Assembly (NCBI GenBank): GCA_963699635.1
Contig: CAVOUQ010000018.1
Span: 192,579-256,578, forward strand
Reading direction: 5' to 3'
DNA from: an uncultured Actinomycetes bacterium
GTDB taxonomy: Bacteria; Actinomycetota; UBA4738; HRBIN12
Length of the DNA stretch: 64,000 nt
Below are positions 36,641 through 41,816 of the stretch, in pieces. The stretch's first letter is position 1; each line of letters starts with the position of its first letter. A program made the translations under genes and the position numbers. The notes beneath the pieces are model-generated. The model was not told the origin of the DNA and did not search any database. It worked only from the letters and a program-made list of their open reading frames with translations.

Positions 36641-36746
36641 CGGTCCTCGAATTCGTTCGAACGCGGCCTGACCTGCGGCGTTGCGGAACCGGGAGTATAC
36701 AATCGAGCCCCTCGCGGTCGAACGAACCGCGGACGGACACGACCGC

Positions 36747-37553
36747 ATGCGGGTTGCCTACTTCGACTGCATCGCCGGGATCACCGGCGATACGGCGCTC
36801 GCCGCACTCGTCGATGCCGGCGTCGACCTCGAGGAGGTCCGCAAGCACCTGGCCACGATGCCGCTCGAGCCGTTCGAGCTCGAGGCGGAGGAGGTGGAGG
36901 AGGGCGGCCTGCGGGCGACCCGCGTAACGGTTCACGCCTCGACGGTCGGCGTGATCCGGACGTATCCGAGCATTCGAGCGCTGCTCGACGCCGGAGAGCT
37001 TCCGCCCGAGGCCCATCGGCTGGCCCACCGAACCTTCCGCCTGCTCGCCGAGGCGGAGGCTCGCGTCCACCGCCGGGAACCGGAGACCGTGACGTTTCAC
37101 GACGCCGACGGGCTCGGCACGCTCGTGCACGTCGTCGGCACCGCGCTCGGGCTGACCTCCCTCGGAGTCGAACGGGTCTTCTCCTCCGCCGTCCCGACCG
37201 GCCTCGGGATGACCAGGACCGAGCACGGCGCCCTGCCGATCCCCACCCCGACGGTCGTCGAGTTGCTCACCGGTGCGCCGCTGTTCTCGCGTGGCGTGAC
37301 GGCCGAGCTGACGAACGCCACGGGCGCGGCCATCCTGGCGGCGACCGTGGAGGGCTACGGAGAGCTCCCGTCGATCCGGGTCGAGGCCGTCGGGTACGGG
37401 GCCGGCACCCAGCGCCTGGACATCCCGAACCTGTTGCGGATCCTGATCGGAGAGGAGGAGCCGGCCACCTCGCGCCCGAGCGCGCCGGGCTCCCGCGAGC
37501 TCCATCTCGTTCCCGAACCCGGGAGCGACTCCCAGCCCGGCGACGCCGGCTAG
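36747..37553 (+). CDS. LarC-family protein (N-terminal domain only, divergent)
   Basis: AYFDCIAGITGD, LAEAEARVH, HGALPIP, TGAAIL, GYGAG..PNLLR. Confidence 0.85.
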   Translation: MRVAYFDCIAGITGDTALAALVDAGVDLEEVRKHLATMPLEPFELEAEEVEEGGLRATRVTVHASTVGVIRTYPSIRALLDAGELPPEAHRLAHRTFRLLAEAEARVHRREPETVTFHDADGLGTLVHVVGTALGLTSLGVERVFSSAVPTGLGMTRTEHGALPIPTPTVVELLTGAPLFSRGVTAELTNATGAAILAATVEGYGELPSIRVEAVGYGAGTQRLDIPNLLRILIGEEEPATSRPSAPGSRELHLVPEPGSDSQPGDAG

Positions 37554-37593
37554 CTTAGCGGGCCCGGCGGCTCAGGCTGGCCCCGAAAACGCC

Positions 37594-37620
37594 CGATGCT
37601 GCCCACGTGGGGCAGCATCG
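37594..37620. terminator. Hairpin between convergent larC-like and peptide genes
   Basis: 11-bp stem CGATGCTGCCC / GGGCAGCATCG, 5-nt loop, followed by GGCGTTTT on the minus strand. Confidence 0.7.
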
Positions 37621-37658
37621 CGGCGGTACCTGGCGGCTCGAGCCGAGCTTGTGGGACC

Positions 37659-37745
37659 TTAGTCCCACTTCCACCCGGCGCCGACGGCCATGAGGAAGGC
37701 CGCCAGCCACCCGAGCGACACCATGAGTCGGCGGTACCTCTGCAC
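37659..37745 (-). CDS. 28-aa small peptide MQRYRRLMVSLGWLAAFLMAVGAGWKWD (not in ORF track)
   Basis: GTG start 7 nt after a strong AAAGGAGG RBS, TAA stop, signal-peptide-like layout, own promoter and downstream hairpin. Confidence 0.85.
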   Translation of the reverse strand: MQRYRRLMVSLGWLAAFLMAVGAGWKWD

Positions 37746-37778
37746 GGCAACGCCTCCTTTCAGGGCGGTACGGAAGGC

Positions 37779-37830
37779 ATATCGGCACCTTGGGGTCGGA
37801 CCTTAAGGGGATTCCTCTGTAGGTCGATAT
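37779..37830. promoter_or_regulatory. Back-to-back sigma28 (FliA/WhiG)-like promoters
   Basis: Minus strand: TAAG-N15-GCCGATAT (37805 to 37779). Plus strand: TAAG-N15-GTCGATAT (37804-37830). Both share palindromic CTTAAG. Confidence 0.7.
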
Positions 37831-37883
37831 CGCCTGGGTGGGTCCTGGCGCGCCTCGGCTCGCCATGTCATAAAAGGGGAACC

Positions 37884-38445
37884 ATGCGTCTGGTCCTTTT
37901 TGCGTTTCCGCTGGCCATCGGCCTCGGATACCTGCTCGGCGGGCGGCTGCGGAACCTCGCCGAGCTCCGGTTTCGGCACGGCTGGGCCGGGCTCGTCGGC
38001 GTGGGCCTCCAGATCCTTCCGGTCGGGGGCACCGGGGGATCCCTGATCCTCATCGCCTCGTTCGTGCTGTTGCTGTTCGTCGCGGGCGCGAACTGGCGGC
38101 TCCCCGGGTTCGGGCTCATCGTCCTCGGGCTCTGCATGAACTTCCTGGTGATCGCCGTGAACGAGGGCATGCCCGTGACCGCTCAGGCGCTCGTCGCCTC
38201 GGGACAGGCGGGCACGCTCGACGACCTCCAGAGCGCGGGCGGTGCCAAGCACCATCTCGCGACCTCCGAGGATCACCTCCTGTTCCTCGCCGACCGGATC
38301 GCGATCCCGCCACCGGTCCGCCAGGCCGTCAGCGTCGGCGACGTGGTCGCCTATGCGGGCGCGATGTGGTTCGTGGTCGCCGGGATGCGTCGTCGCGAGG
38401 CGGACAGCCCGACCGACCTTCTCGCGGCCGGAGGCCTCCACCTGA
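37884..38445 (+). CDS. DUF5317-like membrane protein
   Basis: GGRLRNL, N..VIAVNEGMPV, KHH, FLADRI, SVGD motifs. As assembled it reads in frame into the kinase, but a TGATG junction with a GGAGG RBS at 38443-47 suggests two genes. Confidence 0.75.
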
Positions 38446-40002
38446 TGGACGTCAACGAGGCCGCCCCGGAGCCGCAGCCGGCTGCGACCTGGCTCCAGAA
38501 CGGGTACCAGCTCCTCGTGATCGTCCCGACGATCACGTACCTGGCGGTGTCGCTTCCCGCACAGCGCGCGGCGCTCCAAGATGGGGACGTCCTGCTGTTC
38601 ATCCTCGCCGTCGCCGTCGTCGACCTGATCCCGGTGCCCGGGTGGGGGAACCTCCAGCTCTCCCTCAGCTTCCCGCTCCTGCTCGGCGTCGCGATCATCT
38701 TCCCGCCGCCGGTGGCCACGCTCATCGCGTTCGTGGGATCCGTGGATCCGCGGGAGTTCCGCCTCAAGGTGTCGTTGATCCGAGCGTTGTTCAACCGGAG
38801 CCAGATGGCGCTATCGATCCTGGGGGGCAGCCTCCTGTTCGATCTCATCGCCGAGCCGACATCCGTGTGGTACGCGGTGCTGTTCGGCATCGTCCTCGCG
38901 GCGACCGGCGCGTACGTGATCAACGCCTGGCTCGTCGCCCGGCTCGGGTCGCTCGCGAGCGGCCTGAGCATCCGCCAGGTGCTGATGCGGATGCACGGCA
39001 CGGCCCCGTACGAGTTCCTCCTGTCGTACATCGGGCTCGGCCTGTTCGGGGCCGTCATCGCCCAGTTCTACCTCTCTGACGGCTTCTGGTCGGTCATCGT
39101 GTTCCTCGGCCCGTTGGTGTTCGCCCGCCAGATGTACTTCCGCAGCCGAGCGCTCGCCGATCGGCTCGCCGAGCAGAACGAGATCCTCGCGGACCAGGCC
39201 AGCCGGCTCGAGGCCCTCCTGGAGAAGGAGCACCACACGGTCGACGAGCTCCGAGAGCTCAACCGGATGAAGGGCGAGTTCGTCGCGATCGTGTCGCACG
39301 AGCTCCGGACGCCGGTGACGGCGTTGATGGGCTACGCGAAGACCCTGCGCCAGCCGGAGTTCGCCGACGACCCCAAGATGCGCGACGAGTTCCTCGAGCG
39401 GATGGAGCGGCAGAGCGACCGACTCGTCCGCCTCGTCGAGAACCTCCTCACGGCCTCGAACCTGGAGAACAACCAGCTCCCGGTCTCCGTCGGGCGGGTG
39501 CTGTTCGAAGACCTGGTGCGCGAGATCATCGAGGGCCTCGCGACCGAGGCGAGCCGCGTCCACGTGAACGTCCCGGACGACCTGCCGGTGCTCACGACCG
39601 ACCGACAGGTCCTCTCGCGCGTGTTGCAGAACCTGGTCGACAACGCCCTCAAGTACTCGCCGGACGGATCCCCCTGCGAGCTCGAGGCGCGCCTGGAGGG
39701 CGACCACATCGTCTTCTGGGTCCGCGACTACGGGATCGGCATCTCGCCCGGAGGAGCTGCCCAAGATCTTCGACCGCTTCTACCAGGTCGACTCGTCCAG
39801 CACGCGAACGTTCCGAGGGGCGGGCCTCGGCCTCTCGCTCGTGCAGGATCTCCTCCAGCACCTCGGAGGAACGATCGAGGTCGACAGCGCCCCCGGGGAG
39901 GGCAGCCGCTTCATCGTGACGCTCCCCGTTCGGCACCCGCGAGCGACGACGGTGGACGCGCCCGCCGGCAAGCCGCCGAGCGACCTCGTCGCCAAGAGCT
40001 GA
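38445..40002 (+). CDS. Multi-TM sensor histidine kinase (frameshift near 39750)
   Basis: About 7 TM helices, H-box VSHELRTP, N-box NLVDNALKYS, DYGIG; shifted frame gives IFDRFYQ, GAGLGL, GEGSRF. Confidence 0.92.
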
Positions 40003-40016
40003 CCGGCGCGCGCCGC

Positions 40017-40280
40017 TCAGGTTCGGGTCTGCGCGGCTCGCCAGCGCTTCAGGTTCTCGATGTGCCCGAGCGGCTCGCTCGCGTGCGGGCACGTGAGCGG
40101 GTCCTCGCAGGACGAGTTGCCCTCCATCGTGAAGAAGTTGAAGCGGCAGGTGTCGCAGAACACGTCCAGCTCCTCGGGGAGGTAGGGGCACTCGCCCCAG
40201 GCGCACGAGCGACGCCCCTCGCCCGTCGCGATGTCGAACCCGCAGCCAGGGCACTGCGCGAAGCCTTCCCATCTCGGCAT
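40017..40280 (-). CDS. 87-aa cysteine-rich protein with two tandem Cys4 repeats
   Basis: GGAGG RBS; CPGCGF..TGEG..SC....CP and CDTCRF..TMEG..SC.....CP. Confidence 0.75.
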   Translation of the reverse strand: MPRWEGFAQCPGCGFDIATGEGRRSCAWGECPYLPEELDVFCDTCRFNFFTMEGNSSCEDPLTCPHASEPLGHIENLKRWRAAQTRT

Positions 40281-40393
40281 GGCCGTCGCCTCCACCTCCT
40301 TGGTACGCCGGCCTGCCGGCGTCCGAGAGGGCCGGACGGCCCCCCACGGCCACCCCAAGCGGTCCTCATCCGCGCTCGCACCCCGCAGCTCGA

Positions 40394-40523
40394 TTGACTC
40401 GGGATCTCGTCATCCGCATACTCGCCCGGATGGCATAGCTCCTCTCGGGCGTCCTGGTAACGCGCGACCGCAAGCGTCGCATGACGCCCGTTGGCCTTTC
40501 CGACGAGCGAGAGGAGCATTCCA
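40394..40523 (+). promoter_or_regulatory. Promoter, leaderless Met-Ala-stop uORF and RBS-sequestering leader of the MFS gene
   Basis: TTGACT-17-CATACT; ATGGCATAG at 40430-38; GCTCCTCTCG (40438-47) complementary to CGAGAGGAGC (40508-17), which contains the SD. Confidence 0.7.
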
Positions 40524-41816
40524 TTGAACCGCCGGTTCGCCCGACGTCTCCCTGCCAGGACCGTCTACCTGCTGATCGAGACGGCCCACGGATTCCTGTT
40601 CACGATGATGGGCACCGTCTTCTCGATCTACGTGATCCTGGAGGCGGGCCTCTCCCCGTTCCGGCTGCTGATGCTCGGGACGGCGCTCGAGCTCACGATC
40701 CTCCTGTTCGAGGTGCCGACCGGGGTCGTCGCCGACACCGTGAGCCGGCGGCTCTCCGTGATCGTCGGACTCGCCCTGACCGGCCTCGGCTTCGCGATCA
40801 CGGGCGCGTTCCAGGAGTTCGCGCTACTCGTCGCCGGCCAGTCGCTCTGGGGTCTCGGCTGGACGTTCATGAGCGGAGCCGAGGAGGCGTGGATCACCGA
40901 CGAGGTCGGCGAGCCGGCGGCGGCGCCGATCTACCTTCGCGGGGCGCAGGCCTGGCAGGTGGGCGCCCTTGCCGGGATCCCGGCGGCGGTGGGCCTGGGT
41001 GCGTTCGGTCTCGGCCTCCCGCTCGTCGCATCGGGGATCGGGTTCGGGATCCTCGCGCTCGTGCTCGTCGTCGTGATGCCGGAGACGAACTTCCATCGCG
41101 CGATGAACGGAGAGCGCAAGCGGCTGGTCCGGACGTTCGGAGACGGCGTCCGCGTGGTTCGCGGCAGCCACGTGCTCGTCCTCGTGCTGCTCGTCGCGGC
41201 GCTGCACGGCATGGCGACCGAGGGCTTCGACCGGCTCTCGCAGCTCCACCTGCTGGAGGGAACGTCGTTCCCCGACGTTGGGCGGCTCGGCCTCGTCGCG
41301 TGGTTCGGCGCGATCGAGGCGGTCGGCCTCATCCTGGCGATCGTGGCCGCGGAGATCCTCAAGCGCCGCGCCGACATCGGCAGCCATGCGGGCGCGACGC
41401 GCGTGCTGATGGGGATCGACACCGCGCTGATCGTGTCGGTCGTGGCCTTCGCCTGGCTGGGGGTCTTCTGGATCGCGCTCTGCGCGTTCTGGGTCGTGGC
41501 CTTCCTGCGCGAGATCCGTCAGCCGGTCTTCACGGCATGGCTGAACCGGGGGCTCGACCCGTCGACCCGCGCGACGGTGAACTCGATGGGCGGCCAGATG
41601 GACGCGGTCGGTCAGATCGCCGGCGGACCGACGATCGGCGCCGTCACGGTCTGGTGGGGCGTGCCCGCCGCGATCGCAGTTGCGGGTGTGCTCCGCGCCC
41701 CCGCGCTCGCCCTCTACGCACGGGCGCTGCGACGGGGTGGACACGAGGCGGAGGGGCCGGAGCCGATCGCCGTTCCGGTCGAGCTCGACGTGACGGGGAT
41801 GCCGAATCCCGAGTGA
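40524..41816 (+). CDS. MFS efflux transporter, TetA(P)/DHA3-like
   Basis: GTALE..LFEVPTGVVAD..SRRLS, SGAEEAWITDE, EGFDRL, RATVNS..Q.DAVGQIAGGP; TTG start with GAGGAG RBS. Confidence 0.85.
   Translation: MNRRFARRLPARTVYLLIETAHGFLFTMMGTVFSIYVILEAGLSPFRLLMLGTALELTILLFEVPTGVVADTVSRRLSVIVGLALTGLGFAITGAFQEFALLVAGQSLWGLGWTFMSGAEEAWITDEVGEPAAAPIYLRGAQAWQVGALAGIPAAVGLGAFGLGLPLVASGIGFGILALVLVVVMPETNFHRAMNGERKRLVRTFGDGVRVVRGSHVLVLVLLVAALHGMATEGFDRLSQLHLLEGTSFPDVGRLGLVAWFGAIEAVGLILAIVAAEILKRRADIGSHAGATRVLMGIDTALIVSVVAFAWLGVFWIALCAFWVVAFLREIRQPVFTAWLNRGLDPSTRATVNSMGGQMDAVGQIAGGPTIGAVTVWWGVPAAIAVAGVLRAPALALYARALRRGGHEAEGPEPIAVPVELDVTGMPNPE

What the first reader, a model, noticed from the sequence alone, without database searches (positions are those of the whole stretch)
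37594..40002. Candidate undescribed peptide signalling cassette: 28-aa precursor, DUF5317-like protein and multi-TM histidine kinase
Seen: an unannotated ORF at 37659-37745 (minus) encodes MQRYRRLMVSLGWLAAFLMAVGAGWKWD. It has a basic N-terminus, a hydrophobic core and a polar/aromatic tail GAGWKWD, plus an AAAGGAGG RBS and a downstream hairpin. It lies head-to-head with a DUF5317-like membrane gene and a ~7-TM HisKA/HATPase kinase that has no large extracellular domain and no adjacent response regulator. Known: Agr- and ComCDE-type systems use a short precursor, a membrane processing/export protein and a polytopic membrane kinase. Inference: the peptide is a membrane-inserted precursor, the DUF5317-like protein releases a short C-terminal signal (e.g. 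GWKWD or WKWD), and the kinase TM domain senses it. This would be an Agr-analogous but non-homologous system.
Basis: partly seen in the sequence, partly recalled or inferred. Interest (0 to 1): 0.92.

Follow-up and report, generated by a model that had tools for sequence, protein, structure and literature searches.

The report
Tiny membrane protein beside sensor genes
The 28-residue reading frame is a real, conserved gene for a one-helix membrane protein that sits next to a DUF5317 membrane protein and a membrane-embedded sensor in many related bacteria, so it looks like an undescribed part of a signalling module, probably not a cut-and-secreted signal.

Summary
The ORF at 37659-37745(-) has a GTG start, an AAAGGAGG ribosome-binding site and a downstream hairpin. 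It lies head-to-head with DUF5317 and a polytopic HisKA/HATPase_c kinase, and no response regulator lies within about 4 kb.

In this assembly a 1-nt indel near 38428 fuses DUF5317 to the kinase, and a second near 39749 breaks HATPase_c. Contigs of close relatives lack both indels.

The ORF is protein-coding (pS 0.53, pN 0.17) and belongs to a large family of 24-41 aa single-helix proteins. A profile matched 174 of 294 genomes of the class. DUF5317 lay within 700 nt at 76 of 90 examined sites. A MASE9-like sensor with kinase or GGDEF-EAL output is usually adjacent, and I saw five gene orders with all three parts plus a pair lacking DUF5317.

The conserved parts are the helix and the interfacial motif A-x-[WFY]-[KR]. 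The tail after it is 1-2 residues in 86 of 105 peptides and varies, so a released GWKWD signal is not supported.

Best reading (about 0.5): an intramembrane partner or modulator of the sensor/DUF5317 complex, similar in kind to MgrB-PhoQ. No Pfam or NCBIfam family and no paper covers it.

The parts
37659..37745 (-). Small ORF of 28 codons plus stop (GTG start). It encodes a single-pass membrane micro-protein with a basic N-terminus, one hydrophobic helix and the interfacial motif GAGWK followed by a 2-residue tail.
   Evidence: Searches give the translation. It is conserved in 13 of 19 other orthologous loci. pS 0.53 against pN 0.17 in frame. The profile scores 62-67 bits here, and the next best place in the genome scores under 19 bits.
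37753..37760 (-). Ribosome-binding site AAAGGAGG, 8-15 nt upstream of the GTG.
   Evidence: Read from the sequence. The same GGAGG-type site is kept before the start in the homologous loci.
37586..37625 (-). Terminator-like hairpin with an 11-bp stem, followed by UUUU, oriented for the small ORF.
   Evidence: Fold (z -3.6). Homologous hairpins with changed loops lie downstream of the ORF in relatives. The strict scan did not report it.
37746..37883 (.). 138-nt divergent intergenic region between the small ORF and DUF5317. It presumably holds both promoters.
   Evidence: No sigma-70-type consensus was found. In relatives the spacer is 73-332 nt in the divergent arrangement.
37884..38445 (+). 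DUF5317 gene: five predicted helices and a conserved loop domain. Here a 1-nt indel near 38428-38431 hides its TGA at 38443-38445 and fuses it to the kinase frame.
   Evidence: PF17248, E 1.2e-24. Junction alignment. A contig of a close relative omits one letter at 38428. AF2 model with pLDDT 92.
38445..40002 (+). Sensor histidine kinase: MASE9-like polytopic membrane domain, HisKA and HATPase_c. A 1-nt indel near 39747-39751 splits HATPase_c between two frames.
   Evidence: An RNA-library contig omits one letter at 39749. Of 47 related partner proteins, 18 reach MASE9 at E<=1e-3.

Best explanation
The 28-aa ORF encodes a single-pass membrane micro-protein, with its basic N-terminus in the cytoplasm and the GAGWK motif at the outer membrane interface. 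It is the third part of a conserved membrane signalling module of this phylum, probably Actinomycetota. The module consists of one or more micro-proteins, the 5-helix protein DUF5317 and a MASE9-like polytopic sensor. The sensor's cytoplasmic output is a histidine kinase (as here) or GGDEF-EAL.

I propose that the micro-protein stays in the membrane. It would pack helix-to-helix through its small-residue face (A-x-G-A-G) against the sensor and/or DUF5317. Its conserved Trp-Lys pair would sit near the conserved outer loop of DUF5317 (GMPV, SGQ, KHH, D, SxGD). In this way it would set or modulate sensor activity, as MgrB and SafA do for PhoQ.

Shown here: the gene is real and under purifying selection, the family exists, and the three parts are genomically linked. 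Inferred: the topology, the physical binding and the direction of regulation.

In this assembly the operon carries two 1-nt indels, which are either assembly errors or recent inactivation.
For: Coding and constraint.
- The start, the RBS and the 27-29-codon length are conserved.
- pS 0.53 against pN 0.17 in frame, compared with pS about 0.2 and pN 0.28 in the other two frames.
- Of the 25 listed differences of a roughly 90%-alike contig, 1 lies in the 84-nt ORF body and 24 lie in the flanks; 7 further differences are not listed.

Family.
- A 13-row profile matched 174 of 294 genomes and 48 of 78 genera of the class, with up to 6 copies per genome.
- Of 108 distinct peptides of 25-41 aa, 105 carry A-x-[WFY]-[KR]. 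The tail after it is 1-2 residues in 86 of those 105.

Linkage.
- 76 of 90 sites centred on a peptide match have DUF5317 within 700 nt: 43 divergent, 32 co-directional upstream, 1 downstream.
- Seven of the rest sit 180-266 nt from the sensor gene itself.
- I saw five gene orders that hold all three parts, and a peptide-sensor pair without DUF5317. In all of them the small ORF sits at the 5' edge of the sensor-containing unit.

Partners.
- Of 47 adjacent polytopic proteins, 30 carry GGDEF, 26 EAL, 17 HATPase_c, 15 HisKA and 18 MASE9.
- The divergent order goes with a kinase in 14 of 14 typed cases. The co-directional order goes with GGDEF in 30 of 30 typed cases.

Conservation relative to partners. 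The peptide is more conserved than the kinase in 9 of 12 orthologue comparisons.

Independent expectation. The paper that defined MASE9 proposed that its ligand binding occurs within the membrane (passages read).
Against: - No direct evidence of translation, membrane insertion or binding exists.
- The only RNA-library contig that covers the ORF also spans genes on both strands, so it may be DNA carry-over.
- Of the 30 best DUF5317 loci across the phylum, 11 showed a recognisable small ORF within the DNA fetched; a 12th is doubtful. The partnership is therefore not universal, or my detection is incomplete.
- Tandem arrays of 2-4 copies and two DUF5317-MFS transporter fusions would also suit an exported product.
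- The loci are related to one another, so the counts overstate independent events.
- The invariant K-H-H/D/S-x-G-D cluster of DUF5317 looks like an active or metal-binding site. If so, the peptide could be a substrate rather than a subunit.
Confidence: 0.5

Rival explanations
1. Precursor of a signal. The peptide would be processed and/or exported with the help of DUF5317. Either a short C-terminal piece or the hydrophobic peptide itself (as with SHP or signal-peptide-derived pheromones) would then be sensed by the MASE9-like domain of the same or neighbouring cells.
For: - The small gene is divergent from, or directly upstream of, receptor genes.
- Tandem arrays of 2-4 copies of two subtypes occur.
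- DUF5317 has an invariant polar cluster, K122 H123 H124 D137 S150 G152 D153, that could be catalytic.
- DUF5317 is fused to an MFS transporter in 2 of the 30 phylum loci.
- The sensor has no large outer domain, so a membrane-soluble ligand is plausible.
Against: - The tail after the conserved Lys/Arg is 1-2 residues in 86 of 105 peptides, and some members end at the motif. No cargo of usable length exists.
- Paralogous cassettes within one genome share nearly the same C-terminal motif, so a C-terminal signal would give no specificity.
- The peptide is highly conserved between genera instead of diversifying.
- A cluster of 2-3 Arg/Lys followed by a helix of about 20 residues is a stable membrane anchor.
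- DUF5317 resembles no solved protease.
Confidence: 0.12
2. Substrate or controlled adaptor. DUF5317 would be an outer-face enzyme or metal/ligand-binding protein that modifies, clips or sequesters the conserved Trp-Lys end of the micro-protein in response to a cue. The state of the micro-protein would then switch the MASE9-like sensor. This is a three-part relay in which the micro-protein is the transmitter.
For: - The conserved Lys/Arg sits at a fixed distance from the helix end in all subtypes, with Trp before or after it.
- By the positive-inside rule, the invariant polar residues of DUF5317 lie in the loop domain on the same (outer) side (the topology is inferred).
- All three genes stay together through several gene orders.
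Against: - No fold or sequence similarity to any enzyme.
- Peptide-sensor pairs without an adjacent DUF5317 keep the motif (L043, L046, L051, L100).
- The topology is only inferred.
Confidence: 0.2
3. Type I toxin-like or otherwise unrelated small hydrophobic peptide whose position next to the sensor operon has no functional meaning.
For: The peptide is small and hydrophobic, has a strong RBS and its own terminator, and forms tandem copies in some genomes.
Against: Adjacency to DUF5317 and the sensor is kept in 76 of 90 sites and through five gene orders across classes. The sequence is strongly conserved across genera. No antisense RNA was looked for.
Confidence: 0.04

Closest known systems
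MgrB, SafA and UgtS with the PhoQ sensor kinase (small membrane proteins that regulate a sensor kinase)
   Same: A protein under 50-65 aa with one transmembrane helix acts on a membrane sensor kinase through membrane and outer-face contacts. More than one small protein can converge on one sensor. Sources: passages of PMC12648545 read; listings and abstracts of PMC2789325 and PMC8404706.
   Different: There is no sequence relation: the peptides hit no Pfam or NCBIfam family. The partner is a MASE9-like sensor without a periplasmic domain. Outputs include GGDEF-EAL as well as kinases. A third conserved protein, DUF5317, is part of the module. The small gene is physically linked to the sensor operon. 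The tail is almost absent, whereas MgrB has a functional periplasmic part with two cysteines.
Agr (AgrD/AgrB/AgrC) and ComCDE peptide quorum sensing
   Same: A short ORF, a polytopic membrane protein and a polytopic histidine kinase are encoded together.
   Different: No AgrB, C39-peptidase or ABC-transporter domain is present, and no response regulator is adjacent. Only 1 of 108 peptides has a Cys. There is no leader/cargo layout, and the tail is 1-2 residues. My knowledge of the Agr and Com features is recalled, not taken from a call.
Accessory membrane proteins of sensor kinases encoded in the same operon (SaeQ/SaeP with SaeS, LiaF with LiaS; recalled, not checked in a call)
   Same: A small polytopic protein encoded directly upstream of the kinase and translationally coupled to it, as DUF5317 is here: relatives have a TGA/ATG overlap.
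   Different: DUF5317 is an unrelated family with no solved relative. It also accompanies c-di-GMP enzymes.
MASE9 membrane sensor domain (Galperin and Chou preprint, 10.1101/2021.11.05.467447)
   Same: A polytopic domain without sizeable outer loops, fused to several output domains, with ligand binding proposed to occur inside the membrane (passages read).
   Different: The passages read describe MASE9 with HD-GYP, HD-GYP-GAF-GGDEF and GGDEF-EAL outputs, not with kinases, and mention no partner genes. The match here is below Pfam's cut-off (16.6 bits against 24.3). I could not see its Figure S5 because supplements are closed.

Membership tests
DUF5317 (PF17248) | Match to the Pfam profile above the 25-bit gathering score | tested here: met
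   87.4 bits, E 1.2e-24, residues 52-165. 90.8 bits in the six-frame genome search, and it is the only copy in the genome.
MASE9 (PF20972) | Match to the Pfam profile above 24.3 bits; 8 TM segments including a re-entrant hairpin | tested here: inconclusive
   The window protein scores 16.6 bits, E 0.0075. 18 of 47 related partners reach E<=1e-3, with a best of 6e-6; the first member scores 23.3 bits. I counted helices by eye only.
Class I sensor histidine kinase (HisKA + HATPase_c) | Both domains intact in one frame | tested here: not met
   HisKA scores 70 bits. HATPase_c is split: profile positions 2-51 lie in one frame and 52-110 in another. An RNA-library contig of a relative lacks the extra letter at 39749.
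Agr-type quorum sensing | AgrB-family peptidase, a Cys-containing AgrD-type precursor and an adjacent LytTR response regulator (features recalled) | tested here: not met
   No AgrB or LytTR match among the neighbours at E<=0.1 or 0.001. The window peptide has no Cys, and only 1 of 108 family members has one.
ComC/double-glycine peptide systems | A Gly-Gly leader followed by cargo, and an ABC transporter with a C39 peptidase domain (features recalled) | tested here: not met
   No ABC or C39 domain was found in the genes within about 4 kb that were scanned. Only 1-2 residues follow the motif in 86 of 105 peptides.
Small membrane-protein regulators of sensor kinases (the functional kind represented by MgrB and SafA) | A single-helix protein of at most about 65 aa that binds the sensor and changes its activity | not testable with these tools
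   Size and the single helix are met from the sequence. Binding could not be assessed. The peptides have no sequence relation to any curated small-protein family.
Type I toxin | Toxicity on expression and a cis- or trans-encoded antisense RNA | not tested
   No RNA search was made.

The most novel reading that the evidence does not exclude
The micro-protein is the cognate intramembrane ligand of a MASE-type sensor. DUF5317 is a new kind of outer-face membrane enzyme that matures or releases it. Together they would form a phylum-wide peptide-based cell-cell or envelope-state signalling system of Actinomycetota that feeds both two-component and c-di-GMP pathways. That would be the first ligand assigned to any MASE9-like domain and a non-homologous analogue of Agr or SHP signalling.
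Probability: 0.12. Interest if true: 0.9.

Novelty: new variant of a known kind. Interest (0 to 1): 0.62.

Why it matters
What the membrane-embedded MASE-type sensor domains detect is an open question. The paper that named MASE9 could only suggest binding inside the membrane.

A conserved micro-protein and a conserved DUF partner, encoded with such sensors in many genomes of the phylum that I examined, give three concrete parts to delete, tag and reconstitute. They link a family of unknown function (DUF5317) to both two-component and c-di-GMP signalling.

The family also shows a gap in annotation. The 28-aa window peptide is absent from a collection of about 15 billion predicted proteins. The members found there (29-41 aa) are unnamed or called hypothetical protein.

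Tried and rejected
1. DUF5317 as a distant signal-peptidase-II-like aspartyl protease. This was my own idea from the motifs. The AF2 model is confident (pLDDT 92, pTM 0.85), but Foldseek against the PDB gave 0 matches at E<=0.001, and LspA is not among the 28 weak ones. A profile search of PDB sequences gave only a chance hit at E 0.66. I dropped the idea.

2. Complex prediction with DUF5317 (A2) and the peptide (A1). The verdict was 'no answer', score 0.28 against a mark of 0.32, and the controls were not run. This is no evidence either way.

3. A combined alignment (A5) meant for folding the window's fused DUF5317-sensor frame. MAFFT misplaced the DUF5317 rows onto the sensor part, so I did not fold it.

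4. RNA evidence. No run holds more than 0.19 of the sampled words. One RNA-library contig (X19, record 17) covers 37583-37911, but it spans genes on both strands and may be DNA carry-over. Transcription is therefore not shown, and I draw no habitat from these runs.

5. The promoter scan found nothing, and the strict terminator scan missed the hairpin.

6. The window's MFS gene (40491-41816) as a fourth module part. It has no counterpart in the relatives' flanks and no similarity to the MFS parts fused to DUF5317 elsewhere. I rejected it.

7. Weak NCBIfam hits of a few peptides (MmpB, Cgr1 and others, E 0.0005-0.3, 1-3 of 56 members). I treat these as helix-composition noise.

8. Literature. 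'DUF5317' and 'PF17248' each returned 0 papers. 'MASE9' returned one relevant preprint. 'small membrane protein' with 'diguanylate cyclase' returned 10 papers; I saw the 9 listed and none is on this topic by title or abstract.

Full report
**What is at the coordinates.** The minus-strand ORF at 37659-37745 reads (M/V)QRYRRLMVSLGWLAAFLMAVGAGWKWD with a GTG start. AAAGGAGG lies 8-15 nt upstream. About 35 nt downstream, an 11-bp G+C-rich hairpin is followed by UUUU on the same strand. The 86-nt stretch folds at -46.5 kcal/mol, z -3.6. A strict consensus scan listed neither this hairpin nor any sigma-70-type promoter. Across a 138-nt spacer, a plus-strand gene starts at 37884. Pfam finds DUF5317 (E 1.2e-24), then a polytopic stretch with a sub-threshold MASE9 match (E 0.0075), then HisKA and the first half of HATPase_c. 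Neighbours within about 4 kb are a LarC-like Ni-insertion protein, DUF4446, SerRS, a Cys-rich ORF without a family, MFS_1, DUF308, SHOCT/PLDc_N and DUF7144. None is a response regulator.

In this assembly DUF5317 and the kinase are one open frame, and the second half of HATPase_c is in another frame. In relatives the two proteins match as separate, abutting ORFs, for example G010:C3 3580-4125 and 4125-5444. The junction alignment shows one extra letter in the window near 38428-38431, which hides a TGA/ATG overlap at 38443-38447. A DNA contig of a close relative omits one letter at 38428. An RNA-library contig of a relative omits one at 39749. Both sites read CCGGAGG. The genome bin has 8.7% estimated contamination. 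I cannot tell assembly error from recent inactivation. Either way, the ancestral state is two translationally coupled genes and an intact kinase.

**The small ORF is a gene.** A tblastn search with the peptide found it in 13 of the 19 other loci fetched around kinase orthologues. In each it has a start codon, a GGAGG-type site and a length of 27-29 codons. The last one or two residues differ: WD, WY, AY, AH, TS, NS, S, AF, PH, LH. Among 26 distinct orthologous coding sequences (325 pairs), mean pS is 0.53 and pN is 0.17 in the annotated frame. In the two other frames the values are pS 0.21 and 0.19, and pN 0.28. One row with a one-codon insertion is out of register and inflates pN. A roughly 90%-alike contig has 32 differences over 329 nt. 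Of the 25 listed, 1 lies in the 84-nt ORF body and 24 lie in the flanks; 7 are not listed.

**A large family.** A profile of 13 peptides matched 174 of 294 genomes of the class (48 of 78 genera), with up to six matches per genome. I examined 90 sites: the 30 best, plus the next 60 listed after skipping unpublished genomes and second hits already covered by a fetched region. These gave 108 distinct peptides of 25-41 aa. Of these, 105 carry A-x-[WFY]-[KR]. The tail after that motif is 1 residue in 20, 2 in 66, 3 in 8, 5-9 in 10, and 22 in one peptide (where the pattern matched early in the sequence). The first ten residues hold on average 2.8 Lys/Arg, and one peptide has a Cys. The same profile gives one hit above 15 bits in the whole 4.37-Mb genome, so chance matches are rare. 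Neither Pfam nor NCBIfam has a family for them. The window's exact peptide is not among about 15 billion predicted proteins. Members of 29-41 aa are present there, unnamed or called hypothetical protein.

**Linkage.** Of the 90 sites, 76 have a DUF5317 gene within 700 nt. It is divergent at 43 sites (62-332 nt), co-directional downstream of the small ORF at 32, and upstream of it at 1. The 14 others fall into these groups:
- Three have a truncated DUF5317 remnant.
- Four have the small ORF 180-266 nt divergent from the sensor gene itself.
- Three have DUF5317 more than 2 kb away.
- Four have neither partner within the DNA held; one of these is at a contig end.

With one to three DUF5317 genes per roughly 3-Mb genome, a random site would lie that close about twice in a thousand, by my estimate. 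The sites are related to one another, so the real weight lies in the different arrangements that keep the genes together:
- (I) small ORF divergent from DUF5317-kinase, as in this window.
- (II) one to four small ORFs, then DUF5317, then a GGDEF-EAL sensor.
- (III) DUF5317 divergent from small ORF(s)-sensor, in other classes (L120, L122, L123, L130, L132).
- (IV) small ORF(s), sensor, sensor, DUF5317, in low-G+C classes (L142, L144, L146, L147, and a truncated match in L143).
- (V) small ORF divergent from a kinase that is convergent with DUF5317 (3 of 3 loci checked).
- (VI) small ORF and kinase without an adjacent DUF5317.

In every arrangement the small ORF sits at the 5' edge of the unit that holds the sensor. 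In arrangement II, two subtypes alternate (…ALASLAA.AMAVGAGWKP. and …INWRHLL.TGATLATLLLAAGARWKP.).

**The reverse count is weaker.** DUF5317 occurs in 121 of 301 sampled genomes of the phylum. Of the 30 best-scoring loci, 11 showed a family-like small ORF. One of these is only a truncated 16-bit match, and one is in an unpublished genome. A twelfth locus (L129) passed my heuristic but not the profile. Most loci without a small ORF also lacked an adjacent sensor within the 1.5-kb flanks.

**The partners.** Of 47 adjacent polytopic proteins scanned, 30 have GGDEF, 26 EAL, 17 HATPase_c, 15 HisKA and 18 reach MASE9 at E<=1e-3. The divergent order goes with a kinase in 14 of 14 typed cases; 29 divergent sites could not be typed (partner cut by the flank in 25, no partner seen in 4). 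The co-directional order goes with GGDEF in 30 of 30 typed cases; 2 could not be typed. The DUF5317 model is confident (pLDDT 92, pTM 0.85). It has five long helices and a loop domain at residues 94-150 with short strands. In 45 sequences the invariant residues include N70, N86, G95, M96, S106, Q108, K122, H123, H124, D137, S150, G152 and D153. By the positive-inside rule, which is my inference, the loop domain and the peptide's Trp-Lys end face the same outer side. The model has no match in the PDB at E<=0.001, and no sequence relative has been solved. In 2 of the 30 phylum loci, DUF5317 is fused in frame to an MFS transporter.

**How it most likely works.** The conserved parts are the helix, a small-residue face (A-x-G-A-G) and an interfacial Trp-Lys. 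The tail is negligible and variable. The peptide is more conserved than the kinase in 9 of 12 orthologue comparisons. Paralogous cassettes in one genome differ in the helix rather than in the end motif. These features fit a membrane-resident partner that packs against the sensor and/or DUF5317 and tunes signalling. The kind of mechanism is known from MgrB, SafA and UgtS acting on PhoQ (passages read). It also matches the suggestion that MASE9 binds its ligand inside the membrane. I give this reading about 0.5.

A relay in which DUF5317 modifies or sequesters the Trp-Lys end gets about 0.2. A processed or exported signal gets about 0.12: the tandem arrays, the polar cluster in DUF5317 and the MFS fusions keep it alive, but no cargo exists. 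A type I toxin or a meaningless neighbour gets about 0.04. The remaining probability, about 0.14, is for mechanisms I have not thought of.

**Comparison and novelty.** Nothing here is homologous to Agr or ComCDE parts. Full-text searches for DUF5317 and PF17248 returned no paper. The only paper on MASE9 mentions no partner genes in the passages I read. I file this as a new variant of a known kind (a small membrane-protein partner of a membrane sensor), with an undescribed peptide family, an undescribed role for DUF5317, and c-di-GMP enzymes among the targets.

**Limits.**
- There is no proof of translation or binding.
- The complex prediction gave no verdict and is reported only under Tried and rejected.
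- The phylum name rests on one source label of a relative's protein.
- The counts include related genomes and a few unpublished ones (named under Tried and rejected).

Noticed in passing
window 38424-38434 and 39745-39755: Both 1-nt indels that disturb the operon lie in the same local context, CCGGAGG, where relatives read CCGAGG. This could be a systematic sequencing or assembly error at that motif, or two independent real insertions.
   Followed up: partly
G000:C18:782239-782343 (outside the window; locus L149:2740-2844:+): Another small ORF of 35 aa with a GGAGG site, a basic N-terminus, one hydrophobic helix and the ending AGAANWPHH. It lies divergent from a 480-aa HTH_31/XRE protein that has a weak, sub-threshold TPR_12 match (E 0.0075), a layout reminiscent of RRNPP-type peptide receptors. 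A near-copy lies on contig C12.
   Followed up: partly
L120:1-2055:- and L136:1345-3180:+: DUF5317 is fused in frame to an MFS transporter (MFS_1/MFS_3) in two genomes of different families. Each also has a family-type small ORF next to it.
   Followed up: partly
e.g. L082:1947-2578:+, L104:1176-1973:+, L069:2486-3143:-: Arrays of four small ORFs upstream of DUF5317 and a GGDEF-EAL sensor, made of two alternating subtypes. This suggests hetero-pairs of micro-proteins.
   Followed up: partly
window 40017-40358 (-): A 113-aa Cys-rich ORF with no Pfam family, convergent with the kinase. It is conserved at 65-77% identity at the same place in six related loci.
   Followed up: partly
window 36681-37553 (+): The LarC-like Ni-insertion protein is only 290 aa and covers profile positions 1-239 of 375, so the C-terminal part is missing or encoded elsewhere.
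   Followed up: no
L006, L008, L022, L023, L025 (G005, G012, G004): In three genomes of the same genus, only a C-terminal remnant of DUF5317 (query residues of about 110-182, with two TAA stops) remains between the small ORF and the kinase. The small ORF stays intact.
   Followed up: no
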